Positions 9,967 to 24,626 of a DNA stretch of 64,000 nt are shown in pieces. The DNA lies in contig JAQWGI010000017.1 in assembly GCA_029238315.1 (NCBI GenBank), positions 105,698 through 169,697 on the forward strand. The letters are read 5' to 3'. The stretch's first letter is position 1. Each line of letters opens with the position of its first letter. The notes below the pieces were generated by a model. It worked only from the letters and a program-made list of their open reading frames with translations. It had not been told where the DNA came from and searched no databases. This DNA comes from Polaribacter sp. (GTDB lineage: Bacteria > Bacteroidota > Bacteroidia > Flavobacteriales > Flavobacteriaceae). The position numbers and the translations under genes are program-made.

Positions 9967-12882
9967 ATGAGAAAATTAGCAAGTTTACTTTTTATATTTA
10001 GTATTGCGGCAACACATGCTCAAATTAAGGATCCTTTAATAACGAAGGATAAACAAGCACAAGAAAAATGGGTCAATACCATTTTAAATGCAATGACCAC
10101 TGAAGAAAAAATTGGTCAATTATTTATAGTACAAGCCTATTCTACAAACGATACTGTGAATGAAAAAAAAGTAGCAGCATTGATACAAAAATATCATGCT
10201 GGTAATTTAATTTTTATGCAAGGAACTCCCAAGAGACAAGCAGAGTTGACAAATAAATATCAAGCAATGTCTAAATATCCACTGTTAGTTTCTATTGATG
10301 CAGAATGGGGTTTAGATATGCGATTAGAACATACATTTCGGTATCCTTGGAATATGACTTTGGGTGCTGTTAGAGATAATACTTTGATCGAAAAATTTGG
10401 GGAACAATTAGGTAAACATGCAAATCGATTAGGGATTCATATTAATTTCGCACCTGTTGTAGATATTAACACCAACCCTAAAAATCCAATTATAGGAAAT
10501 CGTTCTTTTGGTGAGGATAAAAAGAATGTAACCGAAAAAGCAATTGCTTTAACACGTGGAATGCAGCGTTTTGGAGTCTTGGCAAATGCCAAGCACTTTC
10601 CAGGTCATGGAGATACTGCAGCAGATTCTCATCATACATTACCAGTAGTAGATTTTGATATGCAACGTTTAGATTCTCTAGAATTGTATCCTTATTACAA
10701 ACTGTTTGATGAGAATATTGCCAGTGTAATGACTGCACATTTGAGTATTCCTAAATTAGAACCTAGTAAAGCGTTGCCTTCTTCTTTATCTAAAAAAATC
10801 ACCACAGATTTACTTAAAGAAAAAATGGGGTATAAAGGGCTAATTATTACAGATGGATTAAACATGAAAGGTGCTGCCAATTATGCAACATCCAAAGAAA
10901 TTAATTTAGCAGCCATTTTAGCAGGTAATGATTTGTTATTAATTCCGCATGAAATTCCAGAAACAATGGATTTTTTCTTAAAAGCAATTAAAGATAAAAA
11001 ATTAACGATAACAAGATTAGACGAATCTGTACGTAAAATTTTAAAAGCAAAATATTGGGCAGGTTTGCACAAGTATACACCAATAGATTTAAAAAACTTA
11101 CAGGAAGATTTAAATACAAAAACAGATGTGTTACTGCACAGAGCGTTAGTTAAAAATTCGATTACGGTACTTAAAAACCAGCAAACTATTTTACCTATTC
11201 AGAATTTAGATGCAAAGAAAATTGCGTATGTAAAGTTTGGAAATGATACCAATACCCCATTTGTAACAATGCTTAATAATTATACAAAAGTAGATGTTGT
11301 AACTGGTAATAATACAGCAGACTTACTCTCAAAATTAAAGCCGTATAATCTAGTAATTATTGGATATCACACCTCAAATTTACATCCTTGGAAAGGATAT
11401 AAATTTAAAAAAGAAGCCATTTCACAAATTCAACAAATAGCCAAAAAGAAAAAGGTAATTTTAGATGTTTTTGCAAGTCCATACAGTTTATTAGATTTTG
11501 CTTCTTTTGATGCAATAGAAGGAATCGTAGTTTCGTATCAGAATAGTGAAATTGCTCAAGAAATATCTGCACAACAACTATTTGGAGCGATTCAAGCGAA
11601 TGGAAAATTACCTGTTTCAATTCATAAAAAATTTAAAGAAGGTTTTGGTCTGTTTACGACAACTTTAAGCAGATTGCAATATGGATTGCCAGAAGAAGTA
11701 AAAATGTCTTCAAAAAAACTGTCAGCAATAGATAGTTTTGCAAAAGAGATTGTTAAAAAAAAAATGGCTCCTGGTTTGCAGGTTCTAGTAGCAAGATCAG
11801 GAAACGTTATTTATCAAAAAAGTTTTGGATATCATACAAATGACACACTTTTAAAGGTACAAAATTCAGATGTCTATGACGTTGCTTCTTTAACAAAAAT
11901 ACTAGCAACCCTACCAATGGTTATGAAGTCTATAGATAATGGTCAGCTTCAATTAGCATCATCTTTAAAACAACTACTACCCGAATTTAAAAACACCAAT
12001 AAAGATACATTAACGATAAAAGAGATATTATCACATAACGGAAGGTTAAAAGCATGGATTCCGTTTTATAAATTAACGCAAGATAGTATTACTCATAAGA
12101 ATTTACCATCATTTTATCGGCTCAAAAGCAATAGAAATTACAGTATAAAAGTGGCAGATAACTTGTTTTTGAAAACCTCTTACAGAGATTCTATTTTTTC
12201 GCAAATAAAACAAGTAGCGCAACGAGATAAAGAAGGATATAAGTATAGTGATCTAGGATATTATATTTTAAAAAAAACTTTAGAAAAACAATACAATAAG
12301 CCCTTAAATGATTTAATTGAAGATAACTTTTATGCCGCATTGGGTGCAAATAGAACGAGTTACTTGCCTCTTAACAAATTTCAAAAAAATGACATAGTTC
12401 CAACAGAAAAAGACACTTATTTTAGAAATCAATTACTACAAGGTTATGTACATGATATGGGGGCTGCTATGTTAGGAGGGGTTGGCGGTCATGCCGGAGT
12501 TTTTTCAAACGCAAATGATGTTGCAAAAATTATGCAAATGTATTTGCAAAACGGTTATTATGGGGGTAAAAGATTCTTAAAAAGTACCACCGTTAAAAAG
12601 TTTAATCAACGGTATTACGAAGACCAAAACATAAGAAGAGGATTAGGGTTTGATAAGCCACAATTAGATCCGGAAATTGAGGCAACTTGTGGTTGTGTTT
12701 CTGACGAAAGTTTCGGTCATAGTGGATTTACAGGAACTTATACTTGGGCGGATCCTAAAAGTAAAATAGTGTATGTTTTTTTGTCTAACCGCGTTTATCC
12801 AACCATGGAAAATAATAGCTTAATTACTGAGAATATAAGAACTAGAATTCAACAAGTAATTCAAGATGCTATTCTTCCGTAA
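9967..12882 (+). CDS. GH3 beta-N-acetylglucosaminidase (NagZ-type) fused to a beta-lactamase-like serine hydrolase
   Basis: Signal peptide, GH3 KHFPGHGD and ITDGL motifs, then SxxK (ASLTK), YSD, and GHSGFTG. Confidence 0.9.
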   Translation: MRKLASLLFIFSIAATHAQIKDPLITKDKQAQEKWVNTILNAMTTEEKIGQLFIVQAYSTNDTVNEKKVAALIQKYHAGNLIFMQGTPKRQAELTNKYQAMSKYPLLVSIDAEWGLDMRLEHTFRYPWNMTLGAVRDNTLIEKFGEQLGKHANRLGIHINFAPVVDINTNPKNPIIGNRSFGEDKKNVTEKAIALTRGMQRFGVLANAKHFPGHGDTAADSHHTLPVVDFDMQRLDSLELYPYYKLFDENIASVMTAHLSIPKLEPSKALPSSLSKKITTDLLKEKMGYKGLIITDGLNMKGAANYATSKEINLAAILAGNDLLLIPHEIPETMDFFLKAIKDKKLTITRLDESVRKILKAKYWAGLHKYTPIDLKNLQEDLNTKTDVLLHRALVKNSITVLKNQQTILPIQNLDAKKIAYVKFGNDTNTPFVTMLNNYTKVDVVTGNNTADLLSKLKPYNLVIIGYHTSNLHPWKGYKFKKEAISQIQQIAKKKKVILDVFASPYSLLDFASFDAIEGIVVSYQNSEIAQEISAQQLFGAIQANGKLPVSIHKKFKEGFGLFTTTLSRLQYGLPEEVKMSSKKLSAIDSFAKEIVKKKMAPGLQVLVARSGNVIYQKSFGYHTNDTLLKVQNSDVYDVASLTKILATLPMVMKSIDNGQLQLASSLKQLLPEFKNTNKDTLTIKEILSHNGRLKAWIPFYKLTQDSITHKNLPSFYRLKSNRNYSIKVADNLFLKTSYRDSIFSQIKQVAQRDKEGYKYSDLGYYILKKTLEKQYNKPLNDLIEDNFYAALGANRTSYLPLNKFQKNDIVPTEKDTYFRNQLLQGYVHDMGAAMLGGVGGHAGVFSNANDVAKIMQMYLQNGYYGGKRFLKSTTVKKFNQRYYEDQNIRRGLGFDKPQLDPEIEATCGCVSDESFGHSGFTGTYTWADPKSKIVYVFLSNRVYPTMENNSLITENIRTRIQQVIQDAILP

Positions 12883-13915
12883 TCGATGTTGTAGAGAATT
12901 TTGTGTACATTAATTGGACTATTAACGTGGTTAATAAGTAAAGTACTGCGGTTTTAAAGTTGTAAAAATTGTACAAAATGAAAGCCTGAATTAAATAAAA
13001 AACAGGAAAAAGTGTAATCCCAATTGCAACTCTAAAGGTATCAACAAACTCCCTTTCATCAATTTTTTTAGCTGCTATTTTCCAAAGTATCCAGGGAAAA
13101 ATACTATTAATAATAAGGATGTAATAAAGTGGTTTTACAACATTTATGCGAACTCTTTTGGTGGTCCTTTTGTTTGTTTTAATAATGCGATTTGCCTCAC
13201 AAACATCTGTGAAATCAATGTTTTTTAAGTTGAGTGTTTTTAAAGTAGTTTGATAGTTATCATCTGCAGGTATGTGAACAGACAAATCTTTTAATTGACT
13301 AGAGACCGCTTCTTTTATAGTTTGAATTGAACTGTTTAGTTCATCTTTATTATAAAGTGTATTTGCCAAGATTGGTTTTCCAAAATGTATTGCAACCTCA
13401 GAAGGGAAGCTACTCACACTTTGATAGGTAATTCCTACTGGGATTATAGTGATTTTTAGATCAGGATATTTTTCAAACGCACCAAATATAATTCTGGTAA
13501 ATCCTTTACTCAAATTTCTAACAGTTCTTCTTTGATCATGACTTCCTTCAGGGAAAATCATAAGAGCCTCTCCTTTTTTTAAAATTTTAAAACAGTCATT
13601 AAATACCTCTGTATTTTTAGAAAGTTCTTTAACACCATCTCTAATTCTATAAATAGGCATAAGATTCAAAGTAGCTAAAAACTTTTTAACAAGCGGTTTT
13701 TTAAATACAGCAGCTCTGACTAAATAATGCGTGTTTCTTGTTGCTGTGGTTGTTACTAAAAGAGGGTCTAATAATCCGTTAGGATGATTTACGGCAAAAA
13801 GTACAGCTCCTTTTTTAGGAATATTCTTTTTGCCAACAACTTTTATTTTTTTTGTGTAAAAAAACAATCCAAGTTTAATGTAACTTCTAATAAAGTTGTA
13901 CCAAATATTTTTCAA
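12869..13915 (-). CDS. Lysophospholipid/glycerol acyltransferase (PlsC-like)
   Basis: HxxxxD (NHPNGLLD), FPEG, and C-terminal TM helices. Confidence 0.88.
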   Translation of the reverse strand: MKNIWYNFIRSYIKLGLFFYTKKIKVVGKKNIPKKGAVLFAVNHPNGLLDPLLVTTTATRNTHYLVRAAVFKKPLVKKFLATLNLMPIYRIRDGVKELSKNTEVFNDCFKILKKGEALMIFPEGSHDQRRTVRNLSKGFTRIIFGAFEKYPDLKITIIPVGITYQSVSSFPSEVAIHFGKPILANTLYNKDELNSSIQTIKEAVSSQLKDLSVHIPADDNYQTTLKTLNLKNIDFTDVCEANRIIKTNKRTTKRVRINVVKPLYYILIINSIFPWILWKIAAKKIDEREFVDTFRVAIGITLFPVFYLIQAFILYNFYNFKTAVLYLLTTLIVQLMYTKFSTTSITEE

Positions 13916-13927
13916 AAAAGAAAAGAT

Positions 13928-14614
13928 TTAAAATCCTTGTGCTATTTTTTTTAGCTTTGGAGTATTAATAATAGTAATGTTTTTGCCTTTTAGAGAAATA
14001 ATTTTTTCTTTTTTAAACTCTGAAAGTAAGCGAATTGCAGATTCTGTTGCTGTACCAATAATATTTGCAATATCTTCTCTAGATAAATGAATGTTGAGTA
14101 CATTGTCTGTATCATGGCCAAATTTTGTGTCAAGATTAATAAGCATTTCAGCCAACCGTTGTTTTACTGTTTTTTGGGCCATATCTACTAAAACATTATC
14201 TGCTTTCTTTAAAGAATCTGCAAGGTCTTTTAAGATATTCATCGAAAAATTAGGGTTTTTAGATAAATCACTCACAATTTCTTCTCTGGGAATAAAACAG
14301 ACTTCCATATCATTAATTGCCGTAGCTTTTAGATTTGCAGCTTCATCATTAATTAAACTTCGTTCCCCTAAAATATCTCCTTTTTTTACCAAATAGATAA
14401 TTTGATCTCTACCGTTGGAACTCATTTTAGAAACTTTACAAACACCATCACTGATACAAAAAAGACCATTAATGTGATCTCCTTCGTCAAATATTACCTC
14501 TCCTTTTTTTATCGTTCTAGAAGTTTTACAAGAAGAAACTCTAATTAATTCGTCTTTGGTTAGCGATTTTAATGAATTTAATTGCCTTACGATACATTGC
14601 TCACATTTACTCAT
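13928..14614 (-). CDS. Crp/Fnr-family regulator with an N-terminal Cys cluster (FNR-like)
   Basis: MSKCEQC...C N-terminus, cNMP-binding fold, HTH LSREDIANIIGTATESAIR. Divergent from the cco cluster. Confidence 0.9.
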   Translation of the reverse strand: MSKCEQCIVRQLNSLKSLTKDELIRVSSCKTSRTIKKGEVIFDEGDHINGLFCISDGVCKVSKMSSNGRDQIIYLVKKGDILGERSLINDEAANLKATAINDMEVCFIPREEIVSDLSKNPNFSMNILKDLADSLKKADNVLVDMAQKTVKQRLAEMLINLDTKFGHDTDNVLNIHLSREDIANIIGTATESAIRLLSEFKKEKIISLKGKNITIINTPKLKKIAQGF

Positions 14615-14643
14615 TCATGGGGTTGTATAAAATAATCTTAATT

Positions 14644-14651
14644 CAAATATA
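14644..14651 (-). promoter_or_regulatory. -7 element of the Crp/Fnr gene
   Basis: TATATTTG on the minus strand, 29 nt before the ATG. Confidence 0.55.
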
Positions 14652-14659
14652 TATAAAAA

Positions 14660-14703
14660 CTGACAATTATCATATAATAAACTAAAGTAATCTTAGACAT
14701 TTG
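14660..14703 (+). promoter_or_regulatory. FNR-like box plus -7 element of ccoI-hemN
   Basis: CTGACAATTATCAT at 14660-14673 (TGA-N6-TCA), then GACATTTG at 14696-14703. Confidence 0.6.
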
Positions 14704-14727
14704 TACCAGGCATTTAGAGTAAATAAT

Positions 14728-17106
14728 ATGAGCAATTTAGTATGTTATCATTGTGGTAATAGCTGCGATGATAATTTAATTACCAAAGACAAAAAAACTT
14801 TTTGTTGTAACGGTTGTAAGACTGTTTACGAAATTTTTTCTGAGAATGATTTAACCTGTTATTATGATTTAGATCAAAATCCAGGAGCAATTCCTGAAGA
14901 TATTTTAGGCAAATATGATTTCTTAGACAATCAAAATATTACAGACAAACTTCTAGAGTTTAACGACAATAATAAGCAAGTTGTGTCTTTGTTTATTCCT
15001 CACATTCATTGTAGTTCTTGTATTTGGGTGTTAGAAAATTTACATAAGCTACAAGAAAATATCGTTGCTTCTCAGGTTAACTTTCCTAAAAAAACGATTA
15101 GAATTACCTATAACGCTGCACAAACTAGCTTAAAAGAGGTTGTATTGCTTTTAAGTGCTATTGGTTACGAACCTTATATTAGTTTGGAAGATTATGAAGT
15201 AGGAAAAAAGAGTATTGATAGAACTTTATTGTATCAATTGGCAGTGGCCGGATTTGCTTTTGGTAATGTAATGTTTTTATCATTCCCAGAGTATTTTGAA
15301 GTGAATGAGTTTTGGTTAGAGCAATACAAACATGTTTTTAGATGGTTGATGTTATTCTTTTCGATTCCTGTTGTATTTTATGCTGCAAAAGATTATTTTA
15401 TATCAGCTTATAAAGGAGTAACATCTAAAATATTAAATATCGATGTCCCTATTGCACTTGGAGTAGTGGTGTTATTTGTTAGGAGTGTAACAGATGTAAT
15501 TTTAGATTTAGGTTCTGGATTTTTCGATAGCTTAACAGGCTTGGTTTTTTTCTTGTTAATTGGTAAGTTTTTTCAACAAAAAACATATAGTTTTCTGTCT
15601 TTTGAGCGAGATTTTAAATCTTATTTCCCTATTGCAGTTACAAAAATTAACGTTGATTTATCTGAAGAAAACACTCAGATTTACGAGATAAAAAAAGGAG
15701 ATCGCTTATTAATTAGAAATCAAGAATTGATTCCAGTTGACGGAATTTTAATAAAAGGTAATGCCACCATAGATTACAGTTTTGTTACAGGAGAATCTAT
15801 TGCTGTAGAAAAGAAATCTGGTGATAAAGTTTTTGCAGGAGGTAAACAGTTAAACGGAATTATAGAGATGGAGGTTGTAAAATCTGTTTCGCAAAGTTAT
15901 TTAACACAACTTTGGAGTAACGATGTTTTTAACAAAGAAAGCACCTCAAAGTTCAAATCATTAACCGATACCATAAGTAAACGATTTACCATATTTGTTT
16001 TGTCAATTGCTACAATAGCCACTATTTTTTGGTTGTTTATCGATCCCAGCATTGCATTACATGTTTTTACAGCGGTACTCATAATAGCGTGTCCTTGTGC
16101 TATTGCTTTAGCAGCACCATTTACCTTAGGTAATTTACTACGCATTTTAGGTAAGAAAAAATTCTATCTTAAAAATGCTTCAATTATTGAAAAAATGGCA
16201 AAGATAGATACTGTTATTTTTGATAAAACAGGCACATTAACATCTACTCAAAAGAGTGAAATCTGTTATGTAGGAAAACCATTTTCAGAGGAAGAAAAGC
16301 ATTTGTTGCAGAATGTTATTCGTATTTCAAATCATCCATTAAGCAGAATGCTTTATAATTCTTTTGATGATGTAAATCAGCAGCAGTTAGAAAGTGTAAA
16401 AGAAATTATTGGAAAAGGAATTGAAGCTACACATAATATGCTTACAATACGAGTGGGTTCATTCTCATTTGTAGATGCTGACATGGATAAGAATCAATTT
16501 GAAACTGCAATTCATGTTCGTTTTAACGGTGAATATTATGGAAAATATGTGTTTAAAAACTCTTATCGAAAACACATGGAACAATTATTTCAAACCCTGG
16601 AACATTCCTTTAGTTTGTCTATTTTATCTGGTGATAATGAAGGCGAAAAGGTGTTTTTAGAAAAAAAACTACCTAAAAAAGTACAGTTTTTATTCAATCA
16701 AAAGCCAGAAGATAAATTAACATACATTCAATCATTACAAGAAAAAGGAAATAAAGTTTTAATGATTGGTGATGGTTTAAATGATGCAGGAGCCTTGATG
16801 CAAAGTGATGTTGGAATCTCATTATCAGAAAATATCAATGTGTTTTCGCCAGCTTGTGACGCCATCTTAGATGCTAGCAATTTTAAAAATATCAAAACCT
16901 ACTTAACATTGTCTAAACAAGCAACTAAAATTATAAAATACAGTTTTGCGTTGTCTTTGTGTTACAATATAATCGGTTTGTATTTTGCAGTAACAGGTCA
17001 GTTAGAGCCTGTAATTGCAGCTATTTTAATGCCGTTGAGCTCAATTACTATTGTAGTATTTACAACGGTAATGACCAATATTTTAGGAAGAAAATTAAAA
17101 GATTAA
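14728..17106 (+). CDS. ccoI: P1B-type heavy-metal ATPase for cbb3 oxidase assembly (CcoI/FixI)
   Basis: N-terminal CxxC/CCxGC, HMA HCSSC, TGES, CPC, DKTGT, GDGLND. ATG 14728 is preferred because the track's TTG at 14701 lies inside the -7 element. Confidence 0.9.
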   Translation: MSNLVCYHCGNSCDDNLITKDKKTFCCNGCKTVYEIFSENDLTCYYDLDQNPGAIPEDILGKYDFLDNQNITDKLLEFNDNNKQVVSLFIPHIHCSSCIWVLENLHKLQENIVASQVNFPKKTIRITYNAAQTSLKEVVLLLSAIGYEPYISLEDYEVGKKSIDRTLLYQLAVAGFAFGNVMFLSFPEYFEVNEFWLEQYKHVFRWLMLFFSIPVVFYAAKDYFISAYKGVTSKILNIDVPIALGVVVLFVRSVTDVILDLGSGFFDSLTGLVFFLLIGKFFQQKTYSFLSFERDFKSYFPIAVTKINVDLSEENTQIYEIKKGDRLLIRNQELIPVDGILIKGNATIDYSFVTGESIAVEKKSGDKVFAGGKQLNGIIEMEVVKSVSQSYLTQLWSNDVFNKESTSKFKSLTDTISKRFTIFVLSIATIATIFWLFIDPSIALHVFTAVLIIACPCAIALAAPFTLGNLLRILGKKKFYLKNASIIEKMAKIDTVIFDKTGTLTSTQKSEICYVGKPFSEEEKHLLQNVIRISNHPLSRMLYNSFDDVNQQQLESVKEIIGKGIEATHNMLTIRVGSFSFVDADMDKNQFETAIHVRFNGEYYGKYVFKNSYRKHMEQLFQTLEHSFSLSILSGDNEGEKVFLEKKLPKKVQFLFNQKPEDKLTYIQSLQEKGNKVLMIGDGLNDAGALMQSDVGISLSENINVFSPACDAILDASNFKNIKTYLTLSKQATKIIKYSFALSLCYNIIGLYFAVTGQLEPVIAAILMPLSSITIVVFTTVMTNILGRKLKD

Positions 17107-17109
17107 ATA

Positions 17110-18471
17110 ATGAATTCACTCATACAAAAATACAACATCCCGGGTCCAAGATACACAAGTTATCCAACAGTTCCGTATTGGAATAAAGAAGGAGTAACTC
17201 TAGAGAATTGGACTTCAAGCTTTCAGAAGTCATTTAAAGAAACCAATAGCTCAGAAGGTATTAGTCTCTACATTCACTTACCTTTTTGTGAGAGTTTGTG
17301 TACGTTTTGTGCTTGTCATAAACACATTACAAAACGCCACGAAGTAGAAGAGGATTATATAGTTACCGTTTTAAAAGAGTGGAAATTATATGTTAATCTG
17401 CTGCCTGAAAAGCCAATTATTAAAGAAATTCATTTAGGAGGAGGAACTCCTACTTTTTTTGCAAGTACTCAACTTAAAAAACTGATTGATGGATTGTTTG
17501 TGTATGCAGCTAAACATAAGGCATATGAATTTAGTTTAGAAGGTCATCCTAATAACACAACCAAAGAACAACTTCAGGTTTTATTTGATTTAGGATTTAC
17601 TAGAATTAGTTTTGGTGTACAAGACTATGATCCAATTGTGCAAAAAGCAATACATAGAGTTCAGCCTTTTAAAAATGTAGAAAATGTAACCAACTGGTCT
17701 AGAGAAATTGGTTTTACATCTGTAAGCCATGATTTAATTTTTGGATTGCCATTTCAAACAAAAGAAAATATTATTGAAACCATTAATAAAACGAAGCAGT
17801 TACAGCCAGATCGAATCTCATTTTATAGTTATGCTCATGTTCCTTGGGTAAAAGGTGTTGGTCAAAGAGGTTTTAATGATGAAGATCTTCCTAAAGATGA
17901 TGAAAAAAGAGCTTTGTATGAAGTTGGAAAAAAGCTATTTGCAGAATTGGGATATATAGAAATAGGAATGGATCATTTTGCATTGCAAACAGATTCGCTT
18001 TTTAAAGCCACTCAAGAAAAAACATTGCATAGAAATTTTATGGGATATACCGCTAATAAAACGCAATTAATGATTGGTCTTGGAATGTCTGCAATTTCAG
18101 ATTCTTGGTATGCTTTTGCTCAAAATGTTAAAACCGTAAAAGAATATCAAAAGATAGTAAATGAAGGGGAATTACCCATTTTTAGAGGGCACTTATTATC
18201 TGAAGAAGATTTAATTGTACGTAAACACATTCTAAATTTAATGTGTCATTTTAAAACAACATGGAATGAAGTTGATAAAAAGAGCATCGATCTTCAAAAG
18301 CAGACAGCTTTGTTAACCGAAATGGAAAATGATAACTTGGTTGAAATTAAAGAAAATTCAATCCATATTCCAGAGCATGCAAGACCTTATGTGCGTAATA
18401 TTTGTATGGCTTTTGACATGCACTTGCAAAAAAATAAGCCAGAAACAGCATTGTTTTCAATGACAGTATAA
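17110..18471 (+). CDS. hemN: Oxygen-independent coproporphyrinogen III oxidase
   Basis: GPRYTSYP, radical-SAM CESLCTFC, GGGTP, GMDHFA, RNFMGY. Confidence 0.95.
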   Translation: MNSLIQKYNIPGPRYTSYPTVPYWNKEGVTLENWTSSFQKSFKETNSSEGISLYIHLPFCESLCTFCACHKHITKRHEVEEDYIVTVLKEWKLYVNLLPEKPIIKEIHLGGGTPTFFASTQLKKLIDGLFVYAAKHKAYEFSLEGHPNNTTKEQLQVLFDLGFTRISFGVQDYDPIVQKAIHRVQPFKNVENVTNWSREIGFTSVSHDLIFGLPFQTKENIIETINKTKQLQPDRISFYSYAHVPWVKGVGQRGFNDEDLPKDDEKRALYEVGKKLFAELGYIEIGMDHFALQTDSLFKATQEKTLHRNFMGYTANKTQLMIGLGMSAISDSWYAFAQNVKTVKEYQKIVNEGELPIFRGHLLSEEDLIVRKHILNLMCHFKTTWNEVDKKSIDLQKQTALLTEMENDNLVEIKENSIHIPEHARPYVRNICMAFDMHLQKNKPETALFSMTV

Positions 18472-18493
18472 ATTATAAAAAAAAGAACTAAAC

Positions 18494-18537
18494 ATGACAA
18501 ATGTCATATTATAGATCAATAATGAACAGTAATTTTG
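18494..18537 (+). promoter_or_regulatory. FNR-like box plus -7 element of the ccoS-ccoNOQP operon
   Basis: Palindrome ATGACA-AA-TGTCAT at 18494-18507 and TAATTTTG at 18530-18537. Confidence 0.7.
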
Positions 18538-18556
18538 AAATTCAAATCAGGCAGAT

Positions 18557-18745
18557 ATGAGCGTAATATATTTACTTCTAGCACTAAGTATTTTAGTGGC
18601 AATCATTTTTTTTATAGCATTTATTTACTCGGTAAAAAGAGGTCAGTATGATGATTCGTATACACCATCGGTTAGAATGTTATTTGATGATGAGCTTGTG
18701 AATGATAAAAAGAACAACCTAAAAACAGATACTAACACAATTTAA
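18557..18745 (+). CDS. ccoS: cbb3 oxidase assembly protein CcoS
   Basis: Single TM followed by GQYDD. Confidence 0.93.
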   Translation: MSVIYLLLALSILVAIIFFIAFIYSVKRGQYDDSYTPSVRMLFDDELVNDKKNNLKTDTNTI

Positions 18746-18747
18746 TT

Positions 18748-20949
18748 ATGGAAATGCAACAATTTTATTACGATAACAAAATCGTAAAGAAGTTTATCTA
18801 CGCAACTTTACTATGGGGAATAGTAGGGTTTAGTATTGGGCTGATGCTAGCTTTTATGTTTATGTTCCCAAACTATACTGACGGTATTTCGTGGTTAAGT
18901 TTTGGGCGTTTAAGACCCTTACATACCAATGCAGTAATTTTTGCCTTTGTGGGAAATGCCATTTTTGCAGGAGTTTATTACTCAATGCAACGATTATTAA
19001 AAGCCAGAATGGCTAGTAATCTTTTAAGTAATTTTAATTTTTGGGGATGGCAATTAATTATTGTAGCGGCTGCAATTACATTGCCTTTAGGGTATACAAC
19101 CTCTAAAGAATATGCCGAATTAGAATGGCCAATCGATATTGCAATCGCATTAGTGTGGGTTGCTTTTGGTGCCAATATGATCTGGACTATTTTACAACGA
19201 AGACAAAGACATTTATATGTTGCTATTTGGTTTTATTTGGCAACATTTGTAACGGTTGCAGTATTACATATCTTCAATAGTTTGGCTTTGCCAGTTGGTT
19301 TTTTGAAAAGTTACTCTGTTTATGCAGGAGTTCAAGATGCATTGGTACAATGGTGGTATGGACACAACGCCGTAGCATTTTTCTTAACAACACCTTTTTT
19401 AGGATTGATGTATTATTTTGTTCCTAAAGCAGCAAATAGACCTGTATATTCTTATCGTTTATCTATTGTGCATTTTTGGTCGTTGATATTTATTTATATC
19501 TGGGCAGGTCCACATCATTTATTATATACTTCTTTGCCAGATTGGGCGCAGAACTTAGGAGTCGCATTTTCTGTAATGTTAATTGCTCCGTCTTGGGGTG
19601 GAATGATTAATGGTTTATTAACGCTTCGTGGGGCTTGGGATAAGGTTAGAACAGATCCTGTTTTAAAATTCATGGTCGTTGCAATTACAGGCTATGGTAT
19701 GGCCACTTTTGAAGGTCCTATGTTGTCGCTTAAAAATGTAAACGCAATTGCGCACTTTTCTGATTGGATTATTGCTCACGTACATGTTGGTGCTTTGGCT
19801 TGGAATGGTTTTTTAGCCTTTGGTATGATTTATTGGTTAGTACCTAGAATGTTTAAAACAACATTATTCTCTAAAGGATTAGCAAATGCACATTTTTGGA
19901 TAGGAACTTTAGGAATTGTTTTATACGCACTCCCAATGTATGTTGCAGGTTTTGTTCAAGCTTCTATGTGGAAACAATTTAACCCAGACGGTACATTAAC
20001 TTATGGTAATTTTTTAGAAACCGTAAGTGAAATCATTCCAATGTATTGGATGCGTGCAATAGGAGGTTCTATGTATATTATTGGTGCCTTAATTATGCTC
20101 TACAATATTATTAGAACTGTAAAGTCTGGAAGTGAAGTTACAGACGAATTGGCTGAAGCACCAGCTTTAGAAAAAGTTTCTAAACACAGAGTAAAAGGAG
20201 AAACCTACCATACTTGGTTAGAAAGAAAACCTGTTCGATTAACCATTTATGCAACTATAGCTATTTTAATTGGTGGAGTAGTACAGATCATTCCAACCTT
20301 ATTAGTGAAGTCTAATATTCCTACAATTACTAGTGTAAAACCTTATACCCCTTTAGAGTTAGAAGGAAGAGATATTTACATTAGAGAAGGTTGTGTAGGT
20401 TGTCATTCTCAAATGGTTAGGCCGTTTAGAAGTGAAGTAGAGCGTTATGGGGAATATTCTAAAGCAGGAGAGTTTGTATATGATCATCCATTTTTATGGG
20501 GATCAAAAAGAACAGGGCCTGATTTGCACAGAGAAGGTGGTAAATATTCCGATAGTTGGCACTTAAATCATATGTACGACCCACAAAGTACCTCTCCAGG
20601 CTCAATCATGCCAGGTTATAAATGGCTCATTAAAAACGAGTTAGATAAGTCTGACACAGAGCTTAAGATGAAAACGATGGTAAAGCTTGGGGTGCCTTAT
20701 ACAGAAGAAGAAATTGCAAATGCGCAACAACACATGTTAGATCAAGGAGAAAAAATAGAAAATAACTTATATGCAGATCCAGATTTTGTTAAAAATTACG
20801 AAGCAGATAAGAAATATGCACAAGATAATAACGAGCCATTTATAGAAATGAGAAACAGAGAAATTGTTGCTGTAATTGCTTATTTACAAAGACTTGGTAC
20901 AGATATTAAAGTAAAAGATGTACAAGCCTTATTAATTAATAAAAAATAA
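18748..20949 (+). CDS. ccoN: cbb3-type cytochrome c oxidase, fused subunits I+II (CcoN-CcoO)
   Basis: GRLRPLHTN, WWYGHN, GPHH, HVH in the CcoN part. EGCVGCHSQMVRP and GSKRTGPDL in the CcoO part. One continuous frame. Confidence 0.96.
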   Translation: MEMQQFYYDNKIVKKFIYATLLWGIVGFSIGLMLAFMFMFPNYTDGISWLSFGRLRPLHTNAVIFAFVGNAIFAGVYYSMQRLLKARMASNLLSNFNFWGWQLIIVAAAITLPLGYTTSKEYAELEWPIDIAIALVWVAFGANMIWTILQRRQRHLYVAIWFYLATFVTVAVLHIFNSLALPVGFLKSYSVYAGVQDALVQWWYGHNAVAFFLTTPFLGLMYYFVPKAANRPVYSYRLSIVHFWSLIFIYIWAGPHHLLYTSLPDWAQNLGVAFSVMLIAPSWGGMINGLLTLRGAWDKVRTDPVLKFMVVAITGYGMATFEGPMLSLKNVNAIAHFSDWIIAHVHVGALAWNGFLAFGMIYWLVPRMFKTTLFSKGLANAHFWIGTLGIVLYALPMYVAGFVQASMWKQFNPDGTLTYGNFLETVSEIIPMYWMRAIGGSMYIIGALIMLYNIIRTVKSGSEVTDELAEAPALEKVSKHRVKGETYHTWLERKPVRLTIYATIAILIGGVVQIIPTLLVKSNIPTITSVKPYTPLELEGRDIYIREGCVGCHSQMVRPFRSEVERYGEYSKAGEFVYDHPFLWGSKRTGPDLHREGGKYSDSWHLNHMYDPQSTSPGSIMPGYKWLIKNELDKSDTELKMKTMVKLGVPYTEEEIANAQQHMLDQGEKIENNLYADPDFVKNYEADKKYAQDNNEPFIEMRNREIVAVIAYLQRLGTDIKVKDVQALLINKK

Positions 20950-20955
20950 GAAATC

Positions 20956-21123
20956 ATGTTAAAATTTGTAAAAAATCATATGGAAAGTATTACGGGAATT
21001 GAGATTTATCCTATGATTTCATTATTAGTATTCTTTGCTTTTTTTGTAGTGCTTTTTTGGTGGGTTTTTACATCTAAAAAAGCGTACATCAAAACAGTTA
21101 GTCAAATTCCATTAGATAATTAA
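20956..21123 (+). CDS. ccoQ: cbb3 oxidase subunit CcoQ (not in the ORF track)
   Basis: 55-aa single-TM ORF MLKFVKNHMESITGIEIYPMISLLVFFAFFVVLFWWVFTSKKAYIKTVSQIPLDN between ccoNO and ccoP. Confidence 0.88.
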   Translation: MLKFVKNHMESITGIEIYPMISLLVFFAFFVVLFWWVFTSKKAYIKTVSQIPLDN

Positions 21124-21137
21124 AAACAGCTATTAAA

Positions 21138-22004
21138 ATGAAAAAATATATCATAGCAATCGTATCTGTCTCATTCATTTTTTTTATGCCATATTTGGCT
21201 ACCGAAATTTCTGAAAGCTATAATGAGCCATATAATTTTCTAGAAAACCCATTGCCTTGGTTGGTAATTACTACATTTTTACTTGTACTCTTAATGCTTG
21301 CTTGGTTGTTAATTGTAGTGTTAAAAAAAGTGCAACTTTTAGAGGATGAAAAGAATGGTGTTACAGAAAAAACACCTCATAATAATTTTGGTGTTTGGGT
21401 CAATCAAATATTACAGAAATGGACAAAATCTAAAGACATAGATGAAGAGGAAGAAATTATTCTAGATCATAATTATGACGGGATCAAAGAGTTAGATAAT
21501 TCTTTGCCACCTTGGTGGGTTTATATGTTTTATGCAACTATTATTTTTGCTGTTGTTTATTTAGTTCGTTTTCATGTTTTTGATGGAGAAAACCAGATAC
21601 ATGAATACAATACAGCAGTTGCAGAAGCAAAAGCAAACCTAGAAAAATACAAAGAAACAGCCACGGATTTAGTAGATGTATCTACCGTTACTTTATTAAC
21701 GGATGAAAAAGATTTAAAAAGAGGAAAAGCCATTTACAATTTAAATTGTGCAGCCTGTCATCTTCCAGATGGTGGTGGATCCATTGGGCCTAATCTTACA
21801 GATGAAAACTGGATTTTAGGAGGTGGAATCAAAAATATTTTTACAACCGTTTCTAATGGTGGTAGAGATGGCAAAGGAATGGTCGCTTGGGATAAAATTT
21901 TAAAACCCATAGATATTGCAAAAGTTTCTAGTTATATAGTTTCTCTTCAAGGAACAACACCAGCAAATCCTAAAAAACCAGAAGGAGATATCTGGAAAGA
22001 GTAA
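21138..22004 (+). CDS. ccoP: cbb3 oxidase subunit III CcoP
   Basis: HNYDGIKELDNSLPPWW, one CAACH haem motif, GPNLTD. Confidence 0.93.
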   Translation: MKKYIIAIVSVSFIFFMPYLATEISESYNEPYNFLENPLPWLVITTFLLVLLMLAWLLIVVLKKVQLLEDEKNGVTEKTPHNNFGVWVNQILQKWTKSKDIDEEEEIILDHNYDGIKELDNSLPPWWVYMFYATIIFAVVYLVRFHVFDGENQIHEYNTAVAEAKANLEKYKETATDLVDVSTVTLLTDEKDLKRGKAIYNLNCAACHLPDGGGSIGPNLTDENWILGGGIKNIFTTVSNGGRDGKGMVAWDKILKPIDIAKVSSYIVSLQGTTPANPKKPEGDIWKE

Positions 22005-22033
22005 GTTAAAGTAAAGGTTAATAAAATAATATA

Positions 22034-23455
22034 ATGGAAACACCTAAAAACGAAAAATTTAGAGATAGTATTGGGACCATTAATAGAGAAGGGAAACGTT
22101 CTTGGGTTTTTCCAAAAAAACCTAGTGGTAAGTTCTATACATATAGAAGTTATGTAAGTTACTTTTTGTTACTGTTCTTATTAGCTTCTCCCTTTGTTAA
22201 AATAAACGGAAATCAGTTTTTACTGTTTAATGTTTTAGAGCGTAAATTTAATATTTTCGGATTTCCTTTTTGGCCTCAAGATTTTCATTTGTTGGTGATC
22301 TCCATGATAATTGGAGTGGTCTTTGTTATTTTGTTTACTGTTGTTTTTGGTAGAATTTTTTGTGGATGGATATGTCCTCAAACCATTTTTTTAGAAATGG
22401 TGTTTCGTAAAATTGAATATTGGATAGACGGAGATAGAGGAAAACAAATTCGTTTACAAAAGCAACCATGGAATGCCGAAAAAATTAAAAAAAGAGTTTT
22501 AAAATGGAGTGTTTTTTTTATCATTTCTTTCTTAATAGCCAATGTGTTTTTAGCCTATTTGATTGGAGGGGATACTGTTATTGAATATATTACTGGCTCA
22601 CCTTTTGAGAATATAAACACGTTAATTTCTTTGTTAATTTTTACAGGTGTTTTCTATTTTATCTTTGCCTGGTTTAGAGAGCAGGTTTGCATAATCGCCT
22701 GTCCTTATGGTAGATTACAAGGTGTATTGCTAGACAATAAAACAATTAATGTTGCTTACGATTTTGTAAGAGGGGAAAAAGAAACTGGAAGAGCCAAGTT
22801 TAAGAAAAACGAAGATAGAGTTGCTTCTGGAAAAGGAGATTGTATTGATTGTAAGCAATGTGTACATGTTTGTCCAACAGGAATTGATATTAGAAACGGT
22901 ACGCAACTAGAGTGTGTTAATTGTACAGCTTGTATTGATGAATGTGATCATATGATGGAGAAAGTTGGGTTGCCGAAAGGATTGATTCGATATGCAAGTG
23001 AAGATAACATTGAGAAAAAATCACCTTTTAAATTTACTGCTAGGATCAAAGGGTATTCTGCGGTGTTATTTATTTTAGTAGGTATATTAATAGGAATGTT
23101 GTTTTTAAGAAACGATGTTGAAGCCACAATTTTAAGATTGCCCGGAGAACTATATCAACATAAAGAAGAAGGTATTATTAGCAATGTTTATACTTTTAAA
23201 GTGATTAATAAAACTACGAAAGAAATAACAAACGTAAATTATAAATTATTATCTCATAAAGGAAAAATTGAATTGGTTACACACAAAGACTTTGTTGTTC
23301 CTAAGCAAGGATTGGCTGAAGGAACCTTATTTATAGAAATTCATAGTTCTTTATTAGATAAAGATAAAATAGCACTTAAAGTGGGTGTTTATAGCGGAGA
23401 TAAATTAATTGAGACTGCAGAAACAAACTTTTTAGGACCTAGAAATTATCGCTAA
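22034..23455 (+). CDS. ccoG: Cytochrome oxidase accessory protein CcoG (Fe-S/Cu reductase family)
   Basis: CGWICPQT, CPYGRLQ, CIDCKQCVHVCP, CVNCTACIDEC. Confidence 0.94.
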   Translation: METPKNEKFRDSIGTINREGKRSWVFPKKPSGKFYTYRSYVSYFLLLFLLASPFVKINGNQFLLFNVLERKFNIFGFPFWPQDFHLLVISMIIGVVFVILFTVVFGRIFCGWICPQTIFLEMVFRKIEYWIDGDRGKQIRLQKQPWNAEKIKKRVLKWSVFFIISFLIANVFLAYLIGGDTVIEYITGSPFENINTLISLLIFTGVFYFIFAWFREQVCIIACPYGRLQGVLLDNKTINVAYDFVRGEKETGRAKFKKNEDRVASGKGDCIDCKQCVHVCPTGIDIRNGTQLECVNCTACIDECDHMMEKVGLPKGLIRYASEDNIEKKSPFKFTARIKGYSAVLFILVGILIGMLFLRNDVEATILRLPGELYQHKEEGIISNVYTFKVINKTTKEITNVNYKLLSHKGKIELVTHKDFVVPKQGLAEGTLFIEIHSSLLDKDKIALKVGVYSGDKLIETAETNFLGPRNYR

Positions 23456-23468
23456 AAAAATAAAAAAA

Positions 23469-23924
23469 ATGAAAATTAAGTTTAATTGGGGATTTGGTGT
23501 TTTGCTTGCCTTTATAGGTTTTATAAGCTTTATTTTATATTTCGTAATTTCTATGAGTGCAAATAATAAATACAGTCATGATTTGGTTGCAAATGATTAT
23601 TACAAGCAGGAGTTAAATTTTCAGAAAAAAATTGAGGCAACAGAAAATGCTAATAAATTAAAAAATAACATTACACTACAACGTGTTAAAGAAGGATTGA
23701 AAATTATTTTCCCAAAAGAATTTAACACCAAAAAAATCAAAGGAAAAGTGTTCCTATACAGACCATCTAATAAACAATTGGATTTTGAAACACAACTAGT
23801 AGTTTCAGATTCATCTTATTTGCTCATGCCTGACAAACGGTTATTGGATGGTCGTTGGAACATCATTGTTGATTGGAATTACAATCAACAGAATTACTTA
23901 TTTAAAAAAGAACTGTTTTATTAA
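23469..23924 (+). CDS. ccoH: FixH/CcoH family protein
   Basis: N-terminal TM, DYYKQELNFQ, LYRPS, and position in the cco cluster. Confidence 0.85.
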   Translation: MKIKFNWGFGVLLAFIGFISFILYFVISMSANNKYSHDLVANDYYKQELNFQKKIEATENANKLKNNITLQRVKEGLKIIFPKEFNTKKIKGKVFLYRPSNKQLDFETQLVVSDSSYLLMPDKRLLDGRWNIIVDWNYNQQNYLFKKELFY

Positions 23925-24626
23925 ATGCTCTTTTCTGCTATAATATTTGGACTTTTAGGAAGTTTTCATTGCATTGGAATGTGTGGGCCAATTGCTTTTA
24001 TGTTGCCTGTTGATAGAAAAAATAATAGCAAAAGAATTTTACAAATTACGGTATATCATTTAGGAAGGTTATTTACCTACGGATTTTTAGGTTTTTTGTT
24101 TGGTCTGTTAGGTAAAGGTTTTTATTTCTTTGGTTTTCAGCAATATTTATCAATTATTATAGGTGTTATAATGATTTTAAGTGTGGTGTTACCAAAAAAA
24201 ATAGTTCATAATTTTAGTATTGCTAAAACTATATATACACTACTCTCTGGGGTAAAGAATAAATTGGGAAAAGAGCTGAAAAAGAAAAGAACTGATACAT
24301 TTTTTACGATTGGTTTTTTAAACGGTTTTTTGCCCTGTGGATTGGTTTATATGGCAGTTTTTGCCTCCATAGCAACAGGAAGTGTTATAGAAGGAAGCAT
24401 GTATATGCTACTTTTTGGCTTAGGAACAATTCCTCTAATGACTGCCTTTGTTTATCTTGGAAACTATACAACTGGTTTGGCTCGAAAAAGAATTCAACAA
24501 TTTATTCCTGTAGCAGTTATTATAGTTGCAGTACTCTTTATTTTGCGCGGAATGGGATTAGGAATTCCGTATGTTTCTCCAATACATATTCACGAAATGG
24601 TAGACGGCGGTCAAGTGTGTCATTAA
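23925..24626 (+). CDS. DsbD_2/TauE-SafE-like membrane protein of cco clusters
   Basis: GSFHCIGMCG and GFLPCGLVY motifs, about six TMs. Confidence 0.85.
   Translation: MLFSAIIFGLLGSFHCIGMCGPIAFMLPVDRKNNSKRILQITVYHLGRLFTYGFLGFLFGLLGKGFYFFGFQQYLSIIIGVIMILSVVLPKKIVHNFSIAKTIYTLLSGVKNKLGKELKKKRTDTFFTIGFLNGFLPCGLVYMAVFASIATGSVIEGSMYMLLFGLGTIPLMTAFVYLGNYTTGLARKRIQQFIPVAVIIVAVLFILRGMGLGIPYVSPIHIHEMVDGGQVCH

What the first reader, a model, noticed from the sequence alone, without database searches (positions are those of the whole stretch)
14660..18537. A Bacteroidota-type FNR box: two TGACA-N2-TRTCA sites at identical distance from their -7 elements
Seen: CTGACAATTATCAT (centre 14666.5) lies 29.5 nt before GACATTTG (starts 14696). 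ATGACAAATGTCAT (centre 18500.5) lies 29.5 nt before TAATTTTG (starts 18530). Neither promoter has an obvious TTG -33 element. The first box also covers the spacer and -33 region of the divergent fnr promoter (-7 at 14644-14651). Established: class II CRP/FNR activation uses a TGA-N6-TCA core centred near -41.5, and if transcription starts about 12 nt after the first base of the -7 element both boxes fall at about -41.5. Inference: the adjacent Cys-bearing regulator activates ccoI-hemN and ccoS-NOQP under low O2 and represses its own gene, through a box that differs from the proteobacterial TTGAT-N4-ATCAA.
Basis: partly seen in the sequence, partly recalled or inferred. Interest (0 to 1): 0.65.

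Follow-up and report, generated by a model that had tools for sequence, protein, structure and literature searches.

The report
Flavobacterial FNR box at cbb3 promoters
Two 14-base palindromes in front of the high-affinity oxidase genes are very probably binding sites of the neighbouring FNR-like low-oxygen regulator, placed as at E. coli FNR-activated promoters, a design kept across the Flavobacteriaceae but not described in the papers I could search.

Summary
CTGACAATTATCAT (14660-14673) and ATGACAAATGTCAT (18494-18507) each start 36 nt before a -7-type element. They are the two best matches to the box model in the whole 2.24 Mb genome.

The boxes and their spacing are conserved. The ccoS box shows this spacing in 46 of 49 Flavobacteriaceae loci, and the fnr-ccoI box is found in about 30 loci. 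The composite box-N22-TAnnTTTG occurs about 430 times in 61 family genomes, against once for the reversed control. The gap is 22 nt in 107 of 143 cases.

A published Flavobacterium psychrophilum TSS map puts TAnnTTTG at -12..-5. On a hypoxia-induced cytochrome c promoter it puts the box at -47..-36, centre -41.5.

Downstream genes form a classic low-oxygen regulon: hemN, ccoS-NOQP, cytochrome c, Usp, thioredoxin, pta, pfl, nirK and norCB.

The adjacent regulator keeps three FNR cluster cysteines plus a new invariant Cys53. Its helix reads E-x2-I-R. It is the only protein in this genome with that helix.

The box is a mild variant of TTGAT-N4-ATCAA: same core, outer T replaced by A/C. It is shared with REC-Crp fusion regulators in other genomes. 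The strict promoter design is typical of Flavobacteriaceae, not of the whole phylum. O2 sensing and autorepression remain inferred.

The parts
13928..14614 (-). fnr-like regulator gene (228 aa): cNMP-binding-type beta-roll plus Crp-type HTH. Cys4, Cys7, Cys53 and Cys106 are invariant in orthologues. Recognition helix is TESAIR.
   Evidence: Pfam PF00027, PF13545 and PF00325. Aligns with A. fischeri FNR from Cys4, E 6e-24. Cys and helix conservation in 39 orthologues. Best NCBIfam model is Fnr, but below its cut-off.
14644..14651 (-). -7 element of the fnr promoter (TATATTTG on the minus strand). Predicted TSS is near 14639.
   Evidence: Sequence. CAAAnnTA lies 16-18 nt before the box in 21 of 30 orthologous spacers. 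The -12..-5 rule comes from PMC9723704.
14660..14673 (.). Box 1, CTGACAATTATCAT. It is centred about -41.5 for the ccoI promoter and about -27.5 for the divergent fnr promoter.
   Evidence: A box is present in the fnr-ccoI spacer in about 30 loci from many genera.
14696..14703 (+). Weak -7 element of the ccoI-hemN promoter (GACATTTG). Predicted TSS is near 14708.
   Evidence: [G/A/C]AnnTTTG sits exactly 36 nt after the start of the box in 27 of 30 loci. The first base is T in only 1 of 30.
14728..17106 (+). ccoI (FixI-type P-type ATPase). The likely start is ATG 14728, not TTG 14701.
   Evidence: Pfam E1-E2_ATPase, ATPase-cat_bd and HMA. TTG 14701 lies upstream of the predicted TSS.
17110..18471 (+). 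hemN (oxygen-independent coproporphyrinogen oxidase, radical SAM)
   Evidence: Pfam Radical_SAM. hemN has its own box in 12 of 12 other genomes sampled.
18494..18507 (.). Box 2, ATGACAAATGTCAT, centred about -41.5 of the ccoS promoter. It is the best-scoring box in the genome.
18530..18537 (+). Consensus -7 element of the ccoS promoter (TAATTTTG). Predicted TSS is near 18542.
   Evidence: The same 36-nt offset is seen in 46 of 49 Flavobacteriaceae loci.
18557..24626 (+). ccoS-ccoNO-ccoQ-ccoP-ccoG-fixH-DsbD_2 operon: cbb3 oxidase and its maturation genes.
   Evidence: Pfam FixS, COX1+FixO, FixQ (weak), FixP_N, Fer4_18/FixG_C, FixH and DsbD_2. The genes are tightly spaced and on the same strand.

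Best explanation
The two palindromes are operator sites of the adjacent FNR-like regulator, a Crp/Fnr-family protein of 228 aa.

Under low oxygen the regulator probably holds an Fe-S cluster, bound by Cys4, Cys7, Cys106 and most likely Cys53. It then dimerises and binds (A/C)TGAY-N4-RTCAT. Both boxes are centred at -41.5 relative to sigma-A promoters, just upstream of the -33 position. From there the regulator would recruit RNA polymerase as a class II activator. This turns on ccoI-hemN, which has a deliberately weak -7 (GACATTTG), and ccoS-ccoNOQP-ccoGH.

Box 1 also covers about -34..-21 of the divergent fnr promoter, which has a perfect -7. The bound regulator would therefore hinder its own transcription.

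In this genome the same box, at the same offset, precedes:
- a monohaem cytochrome c;
- norCB-nirK;
- a thioredoxin-like gene;
- probably TPMT-cydA, a CBS protein and a TrxB-like reductase.

Shown here: the sequence, its conservation, the fixed spacing, the regulon content, the phyletic link between regulator and box, and the -41.5 position on a mapped Flavobacterium TSS.

Inferred: which protein binds (by elimination), Fe-S/O2 sensing, activation, and autorepression.
For: Conservation and spacing:
- Box plus 36-nt offset at ccoS in 46 of 49 Flavobacteriaceae loci.
- Box in the fnr-ccoI spacer in about 30 loci, with both flanking -7 elements at fixed distances.
- Composite TGAYN4RTCAT-N22-TANNTTTG: about 430 hits in 61 genomes against 1 for the reversed control.
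- Gap is 22 nt in 107 of 143 hits and 23 nt in 11; background is at most 2 per gap.

Position relative to the TSS:
- F. psychrophilum 5'-end RNA-seq places TAnnTTTG at -12..-5.
- TSS T_0050 of the hypoxia-cluster cytochrome c places the box at -47..-36.

Expression and regulon:
- In that species hypoxia induces cbb3, hemN, that cytochrome c and thioredoxins.
- First genes behind 120 composite sites: hemN 12, Usp 12, ccoS 10, cytochrome c 9, Thioredoxin_9 7, TrxB-like 4, pta 4, HPF 3, PflB 2, NirK 2.
- The two window boxes are the top hits in the own genome. The other hits at the right offset are orthologues of these regulon members, plus norCB-nirK and cydA.

Regulator:
- It aligns with FNR from Cys4. 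Ec C20, C23 and C122 are conserved, and Cys53 is invariant in 39 of 39 orthologues.
- The helix keeps E209 and R213. S212 is replaced by Ile, which matches the loss of the outer T.
- Only two Crp-family genes exist in this genome. The other lacks the Glu, and there is no REC-Crp fusion.
- Boxes are present in 53 of 55 genomes that have a regulator with this helix, against 1 of 6 without one (Fisher p = 2e-5).
Against:
- The fourth FNR ligand (Ec C29) is absent (N/S/T). The role of Cys53 rests on invariance and on my recollection of the fold topology, not on a structure.
- The protein scores 104.7 bits against the NCBIfam Fnr cut-off of 228.
- In F. psychrophilum the same gene cluster is also induced by the iron chelator 2,2'-dipyridyl. 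That is not what a simple holo-[4Fe-4S] activator predicts, unless the effect is indirect.
- REC-Crp fusion regulators share the recognition helix and apparently the box. The box alone therefore does not identify the sensor.
- Two genomes with an FNR orthologue show no strict composite hit (G003, G036).
- Autorepression rests on geometry only.
- The assembly is 96% complete, so a missing regulator gene cannot be excluded.
Confidence: 0.75

Rival explanations
1. The boxes are real class II activator sites, but the adjacent regulator senses something other than O2 through its cysteines. Candidates are NO (as for Dnr/NnrR), a thiol/disulfide redox state (as for Lactobacillus FLP), or iron/Fe-S status.
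For: The Cys pattern is non-canonical because Ec C29 is missing. The regulon includes norCB-nirK and thioredoxin-type genes. The F. psychrophilum cluster also responds to iron chelation.
Against: Three of the four FNR ligands align exactly, and a fourth invariant Cys exists. The core regulon (cbb3, hemN, cytochrome c, Usp, pfl, pta) is the classic O2-limitation set, and it is hypoxia-induced in F. psychrophilum without added N-oxides. Many genomes with the boxes have no denitrification genes among their hits.
Confidence: 0.12
2. Another protein, not the adjacent FNR-like one, binds the boxes in this genome. It could be the second Crp-family paralogue (C7:72945-73577), or a regulator missing from the 96%-complete assembly such as a FixL-like kinase with a REC-Crp fusion. 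The adjacent gene would then be only a co-regulated neighbour.
For: In 11 of 61 family genomes the boxes exist without an FNR orthologue but with a REC-Crp fusion that has the same helix. Earlier notes of this scan attributed similar boxes to that pair. The assembly is incomplete.
Against: tblastn with five REC-Crp fusions finds their Crp module only at the FNR gene of this genome. An HMM search finds only two family members. The paralogue has Val in place of the Glu that reads the G of TGA. The fnr gene is linked to a box in its own promoter in about 30 genera. At least 30 genomes that have only the FNR type carry 1-18 boxes.
Confidence: 0.08
3. The palindromes are repressor operators or chance AT-rich palindromes with no activating role.
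For: No expression data exist for this organism. Box 1 overlaps the fnr promoter core.
Against: The offset to the -7 element is fixed (107 of 143 at N22), with about 430 hits against 1 for the control. The weak -7 at ccoI is conserved. Hypoxic induction of orthologous box-bearing genes is documented, and the mapped -41.5 position lies upstream of the polymerase core contacts.
Confidence: 0.03

Closest known systems
E. coli / Aliivibrio fischeri FNR and class II FNR promoters (TTGAT-N4-ATCAA centred at -41.5)
   Same: - Crp/Fnr fold.
- N-terminal C-x2-C plus the central Cys align (Ec C20, C23, C122).
- Recognition-helix Glu and Arg are kept.
- Core TGAY-N4-RTCA.
- Site centred at -41.5.
- Regulon of high-affinity oxidases, hemN, pfl, pta and N-oxide reductases.
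- A site in its own promoter.
   Different: - The Ec C29 ligand is absent, and an invariant Cys53 on the beta-roll probably replaces it.
- S212 is Ile, and the outer base of each half-site is A/C rather than T (ATGAY...RTCAT).
- The promoters are Bacteroidota sigma-A type (-33/-7, TAnnTTTG at -12..-5).
- The protein is below the NCBIfam Fnr cut-off.
- Nothing has been tested biochemically.
Rhizobial/Caulobacter FixK (FixK2) boxes at fixNOQP, fixGHIS and hemN
   Same: The target set is the same (cbb3 oxidase, its ccoGHIS maturation genes, hemN). The box is TTGA-N6-TCAA-like at class II positions.
   Different: FixK has no Fe-S cluster and is controlled by FixLJ. Here the regulator carries FNR-type cysteines, and this genome has no FixLJ-like partner. 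A FixL-like/REC-Crp route does exist in other Bacteroidota and seems to use the same box.
Pseudomonas Anr / Paracoccus FnrP regulons
   Same: A global low-oxygen regulon that includes cbb3 oxidase, hemN, a cytochrome c, universal stress proteins and denitrification genes. It works through one palindromic box.
   Different: These are proteobacterial proteins with the canonical four-Cys pattern and the TTGAT-N4-ATCAA box. They belong to a different phylum with a different promoter architecture.
Crp/Fnr-family protein of Porphyromonas gingivalis, PDB 2gau (structural genomics)
   Same: It is the closest solved structure by sequence (E 1e-29, residues 35-226).
   Different: The match starts at residue 35, so the N-terminal Cys motif is not covered. 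No function or site has been reported for the entry.

Membership tests
FNR (O2-sensing [4Fe-4S] Crp/Fnr regulators) | Crp/Fnr domain architecture: cNMP-binding-like beta-roll plus C-terminal Crp-type HTH | tested here: met
   PF00027 4e-19, PF13545 2e-17, PF00325 5e-7.
FNR (O2-sensing [4Fe-4S] Crp/Fnr regulators) | Four cluster-ligand cysteines at the positions of Ec C20, C23, C29 and C122 | tested here: not met
   C20, C23 and C122 equivalents are invariant in 39 of 39 orthologues. The C29 position is N/S/T in all 39. Cys53 (Ec A70) is invariant instead.
FNR (O2-sensing [4Fe-4S] Crp/Fnr regulators) | Recognition helix E209-x2-S212-R213 | tested here: inconclusive
   Glu and Arg are invariant. 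Ser is replaced by Ile in 39 of 39 orthologues.
FNR (O2-sensing [4Fe-4S] Crp/Fnr regulators) | Binding site TTGAT-N4-ATCAA | tested here: inconclusive
   The core TGAY-N4-RTCA is present. The outer position is A 64%, C 28%, T 3% on the distal side, and T on the proximal side where FNR has A. Binding itself was not tested.
FNR (O2-sensing [4Fe-4S] Crp/Fnr regulators) | Score above the curated family threshold (NCBIfam NF008365 Fnr) | tested here: not met
   104.7 bits against a cut-off of 228. It is still the best-scoring model, ahead of FnrL, CRP, NtcA and FixK.
FNR (O2-sensing [4Fe-4S] Crp/Fnr regulators) | O2-labile [4Fe-4S] cluster controlling dimerisation and DNA binding | not testable with these tools
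   Needs anaerobic purification and spectroscopy.
Class II Crp/FNR-dependent promoter | Activator site centred near -41.5 relative to the TSS | tested here: met
   The centre lies 29.5 nt before the first base of TAnnTTTG. The motif spans -12..-5. The mapped TSS T_0050 of F. psychrophilum puts the box at -47..-36. The TSSs of this organism itself are not mapped.
Class II Crp/FNR-dependent promoter | Expression depends on the activator, with a weak core promoter | tested here: inconclusive
   The ccoI -7 lacks the first T in 29 of 30 loci, and no TTG is present at -33 in this window. The ccoS -7 is consensus. There is no expression test.
FixK (cluster-less, FixLJ-controlled) | No sensory cysteines; controlled by a FixL/FixJ two-component system | tested here: not met
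   Four invariant Cys are present. No REC-Crp or FixJ-type partner was found for the box in this genome.

The most novel reading that the evidence does not exclude
Flavobacteria may carry a distinct FNR lineage in which the fourth Fe-S ligand has moved from the N-terminal loop (Ec C29) to a beta-roll strand (Cys53). In this lineage a Ser-to-Ile change in the recognition helix would have re-tuned the outer base of the box.

This sensor and a FixL-like/REC-Crp phospho-relay would be interchangeable inputs to one conserved operator and promoter design (-41.5 on -33/-7 promoters). Lineages would keep either one or both. That would make this a natural experiment in sensor swapping on a fixed cis-regulatory code. 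It would also show that the class II activator-polymerase geometry holds for the divergent Bacteroidota sigma-A.
Probability: 0.4. Interest if true: 0.65.

Novelty: new variant of a known kind. Interest (0 to 1): 0.5.

Why it matters
Flavobacteriaceae are major degraders of marine and freshwater organic matter and include fish pathogens. Particles, biofilms and infected tissue are low in oxygen. Yet the regulator behind their hypoxia response is not named in the literature I could search. The F. psychrophilum transcriptome paper lists the hypoxia cluster without a regulator. A meta-regulon study filed Flavobacteriales Crp/Fnr homologues as MalR-like carbon sensors.

This finding offers three things:
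- A precise, testable operator rule, (A/C)TGAY-N4-RTCAT placed 22 nt before TAnnTTTG, which allows the low-oxygen regulon to be read directly from any family genome. That regulon includes nirK, norCB and cbb3.
- Evidence that the -41.5 activation geometry carries over to the unusual Bacteroidota promoter.
- A variant Cys ligand set that is worth biochemical study.

Tried and rejected
I used the published F. psychrophilum TSS table instead.
- Literature: six searches for a described flavobacterial or Bacteroidota FNR box or regulon (one search failed on syntax). None found one. Subscription journals and RegPrecise could not be searched.
- The cco and hemN promoters in the F. psychrophilum TSS table: the stored file is cut before those genes. 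Only the cytochrome c promoter (T_0050) and a PAS-sensor promoter (T_0388, box centre -39.5, atypical -7) were retrievable.
- The E. coli-type consensus TTGAT-N4-ATCAA in the own genome: 31 hits, none at the cco promoters. Their context was not examined.
- The idea that the box is a new kind of site: rejected, because the core equals the FNR/FixK core.
- The idea that the strict design is phylum-wide: rejected.
- The third palindrome in the window (13251-13262): it lies inside an acyltransferase ORF, was not among the weight-matrix hits scoring 9 bits or more, and I looked for no -7 element beside it. I treated it as chance.
- Structure prediction to test whether Cys53 lies near Cys106: not run, because the tool returns no coordinates.


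Full report
**Observation**

- CTGACAATTATCAT lies at 14660-14673 and GACATTTG at 14696-14703.
- ATGACAAATGTCAT lies at 18494-18507 and TAATTTTG at 18530-18537.
- In both cases the 14-mer starts 36 nt before the -7-type octamer, so the centre is 29.5 nt before its first base.
- On the other side of box 1, CAAATATA at 14644-14651 reads TATATTTG on the minus strand, a perfect -7 for the divergent regulator gene.

Pfam confirms the genes:
- a Crp/Fnr-family regulator, 13928-14614 (-);
- ccoI, hemN, ccoS, fused ccoNO, ccoQ (weak), ccoP, ccoG, fixH and a DsbD_2 protein.

The pattern is unlikely to arise by chance.
- TGAYANNTRTCA occurs 3 times in the window against 0.36 expected; 0 of 100 shuffles reached 3.
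- It occurs 14 times in the 2.24 Mb, 31% G+C genome.
- With a weight matrix built from orthologous ccoS sites, the two window boxes are the two best sites in the genome. The ccoS box was itself a training site; the ccoI box was not.

**Conservation**

A scan with the CcoNO protein returned 80 loci across Bacteroidota.
- Upstream of ccoS, 46 of 49 Flavobacteriaceae loci carry (A/C)TGAYA-N2-TRTCAT exactly 36 nt before TAnnTTT(G/A). These include Polaribacter, Tenacibaculum, Mesonia, Winogradskyella, Aquimarina and Flavobacterium.
- The divergent fnr/ccoI arrangement recurs in 33 loci, and a box is present in the spacer in about 30 of them.
- At ccoI the octamer 36 nt after the box is [G/A/C]AnnTTTG in 27 of 30 loci. 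Its first base is T in only 1 of 30, so this is a conserved weak -7.
- The fnr -7 starts 16-18 nt before the box in 21 of 30 loci.

**Family-wide promoter design**

- The composite TGAYNNNNRTCAT-N22-TANNTTTG occurs about 430 times in 54 of 61 Flavobacteriaceae genomes. The reversed control occurs once.
- With a free gap of 12-42 nt in ten genomes, 107 of 143 listed matches have a gap of 22 nt and 11 have 23 nt. No other gap exceeds 2.
- A logo of 120 sites gives A/C at -48, TGAY, a-w-a-T, RTCA, T at -35, then T (75%) at -33 and -32.
- The core therefore equals the FNR/FixK core. The outer base differs: A 64%, C 28%, T 3%, where E. coli FNR prefers T.

**Position relative to the TSS**

- The F. 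psychrophilum transcriptome paper (PMC9723704) states that the sigma-A motif TAnnTTTG lies at -12 to -5.
- Its Table S2 gives -50..+10 sequences for mapped 5' ends.
- TSS T_0050 drives the cytochrome c551/c552-family gene THC0290_0041, a member of hypoxia co-expression cluster C52. Its sequence reads TGAtgatatttatcatttttttaAGTCATAACATAGCCTACTTTTGAAgtaac....
- There the box occupies -47..-36 (centre -41.5) and TACTTTTG occupies -12..-5.
- This is the same 35-nt distance from 12-mer start to -7 start as in the window.
- By the same rule the predicted TSSs here are about 14708 (ccoI), 18542 (ccoS) and 14639 (fnr). Box 1 covers about -34..-21 of the fnr promoter.
- TTG 14701, listed as the first start of the ccoI ORF, lies upstream of the predicted TSS. 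ATG 14728 is the likely start.

**Regulon**

I fetched the DNA behind 120 composite sites from 16 genomes. I clustered the first downstream ORFs and checked representatives with Pfam.

| First downstream gene | Sites |
|---|---|
| hemN | 12 (12 genomes) |
| universal stress proteins | 12 |
| ccoS | 10 |
| monohaem cytochrome c lipoprotein | 9 |
| Thioredoxin_9 protein | 7 |
| TrxB-like flavoprotein | 4 |
| pta | 4 |
| ribosome hibernation factor | 3 |
| pyruvate formate-lyase | 2 |
| NirK | 2 |

Single sites precede, from their sequences alone (not Pfam-checked), a CBS protein, Crp paralogues, and what look like an Rrf2 regulator, a D-lactate dehydrogenase-like enzyme, Dps and a globin.

F. 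psychrophilum induces exactly such genes under oxygen limitation: cbb3, hemN, a monohaem cytochrome c, thioredoxins and a peroxiredoxin. The paper names no regulator.

In the window's own genome, the remaining sites at the correct offset precede:
- the orthologous cytochrome c (C27:160267, gap one shorter);
- norC-norB-nirK (C27:159551-159593);
- the Thioredoxin_9 gene (C33:17904);
- a TPMT-like gene followed by cydA (C7:71576);
- the CBS protein and the TrxB-like gene.

**The regulator**

- It aligns with A. fischeri FNR from residue 3 (E 6e-24).
- Among NCBIfam models it scores best against Fnr, but at 104.7 bits against a cut-off of 228.
- In 39 orthologues Cys4, Cys7 and Cys106 are invariant. 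They correspond to Ec C20, C23 and C122.
- The Ec C29 position is always N, S or T.
- Cys53 (Ec A70) is also invariant.
- In the cNMP-domain fold the strand that carries residue 53 should neighbour the strand that carries residue 106. This is my recollection of the topology and was not tested. I therefore propose Cys53 as the fourth ligand.
- The recognition helix is T-E-S-x-I-R. The Glu and Arg of FNR are invariant, and Ser212 is always Ile.
- From published E. coli work, recalled from memory, Ser212 reads the outer T of TTGAT. Its replacement fits the changed outer base of the box.

**Which protein binds?**

- This genome has only two Crp-family genes. The second, C7:72945-73577, has Val where the Glu should be.
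- Earlier notes of this scan attributed similar boxes in other genomes to a FixL-like kinase with a REC-Crp fusion regulator.
- I found such fusions in the non-Flavobacteriaceae loci (about 350 aa). Their helix is TE(S/T)V(I/S)R, essentially the same, and they lack the four cysteines.
- None is present in this genome. Their Crp module matches only the FNR gene.
- Across 61 family genomes, 44 have an FNR orthologue, 11 have only the fusion type and 6 have neither.
- Boxes occur in 53 of 55 genomes with a regulator and in 1 of 6 without (Fisher p = 2e-5).
- The box is thus shared by two sensor types. In this genome the Cys-bearing FNR is the only candidate.

**Taxonomic reach**

- In a 151-genome phylum sample, the strict single-box design is common in Flavobacteriaceae and one other Flavobacteriales family. 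It is weak in other families of the class and near background elsewhere.
- In Cytophagales, Sphingobacteriales and related loci, the cco promoter usually has a strong box 57 nt before the -7 (centre about -63.5). A weaker second box often lies 22 nt downstream, at -41.5.
- The box as such is widespread in the class, but 'Bacteroidota-type' overstates the single-box -41.5 design.

**Caveats**

- Activation, O2 sensing and autorepression are inferred by analogy.
- The F. psychrophilum cluster is also induced by an iron chelator, which a holo-Fe-S activator does not obviously predict.
- Two genomes with an FNR orthologue show no strict composite.
- The literature search covered open-access papers only. 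One paper assigned Flavobacteriales Crp/Fnr homologues to MalR-like carbon sensing, which suggests this regulon is not recognised there.

**Verdict**

This is a real, conserved FNR-type operator in a class II position. It is a variant of a well-known system rather than a new kind. It comes with a clear operator rule, a relocated candidate cluster ligand and a second, interchangeable sensor in related genomes.

Noticed in passing
L052, L055, L056, L067, L068, L071, L072, L078 (400 nt upstream of ccoN/ccoS): In Cytophagales, Sphingobacteriales and other non-Flavobacteriaceae loci, the cco promoter has a strong TGAY-N4-RTCA box 57 nt before TAnnTTTG (centre about -63.5). A weaker second box often lies exactly 22 nt downstream, at -41.5. 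This is a tandem design, unlike the single box seen here.
   Followed up: partly
L050, L052, L064, L068, L072 (ORFs hit at 30-35% by the FNR query): Response-regulator receiver domains are fused to a complete Crp-type module (about 350 aa). Their recognition helix, TE(S/T)V(I/S)R, is nearly the same as in the Cys-FNR, but they have none of the four cysteines. Eleven of 61 Flavobacteriaceae genomes have only this type and still carry the boxes.
   Followed up: partly
own genome C27:156998-160280 (outside the window): A monohaem cytochrome c gene and a norC-norB-nirK cluster each lie behind a box at the class II offset. This 2.24 Mb Polaribacter-like genome therefore has a partial denitrification module, seemingly under the same regulator.
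   Followed up: partly
own genome C7:69499-73577 (outside the window): The second Crp-family paralogue has a GDTCAMT..CC motif and no Glu in its recognition helix. It sits upstream of a c-type cytochrome (CxxCH) and a thioredoxin. A box with GATTTTTG at the right offset follows, ahead of a TPMT-like methyltransferase and cydA.
   Followed up: partly
window 14704-14727 and the orthologous ccoI leaders in L001-L048: A conserved stretch, AGG(C/T)A-N3-6-GAG(C/T)AAAT, lies between the ccoI -7 element and the start codon. A similar CAGG(C/T) occurs in many ccoS leaders (18548-18552 here). Its purpose is unknown; in some species it may include the true start codon.
   Followed up: no
window 14701 vs 14728: The longest ccoI ORF starts at TTG 14701, which overlaps the -7 element and lies upstream of the predicted TSS. 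ATG 14728 (MSNLVCYHCG...) is the plausible start.
   Followed up: partly
window 13251-13262: A third TGAYANNTRTCA match (TGATAGTTATCA) lies inside the acyltransferase ORF 12869-13915 (-), downstream of fnr. It was not among the weight-matrix hits scoring 9 bits or more, and I looked for no -7 element beside it. It is probably chance.
   Followed up: partly
PMC9723704 Table S2, TSS T_0388 (F. psychrophilum): The promoter of a PAS-domain sensor gene carries ATGATAATTATCAT centred at -39.5 relative to its mapped TSS, with an atypical -7. This may be a hypoxia-box-controlled sensor gene.
   Followed up: no
PMC9723704 SI (F. psychrophilum cluster C52): The hypoxia cluster (cbb3 operon and cytochromes c) is also strongly induced by the iron chelator 2,2'-dipyridyl. 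A simple holo-Fe-S activator model does not predict this.
   Followed up: no
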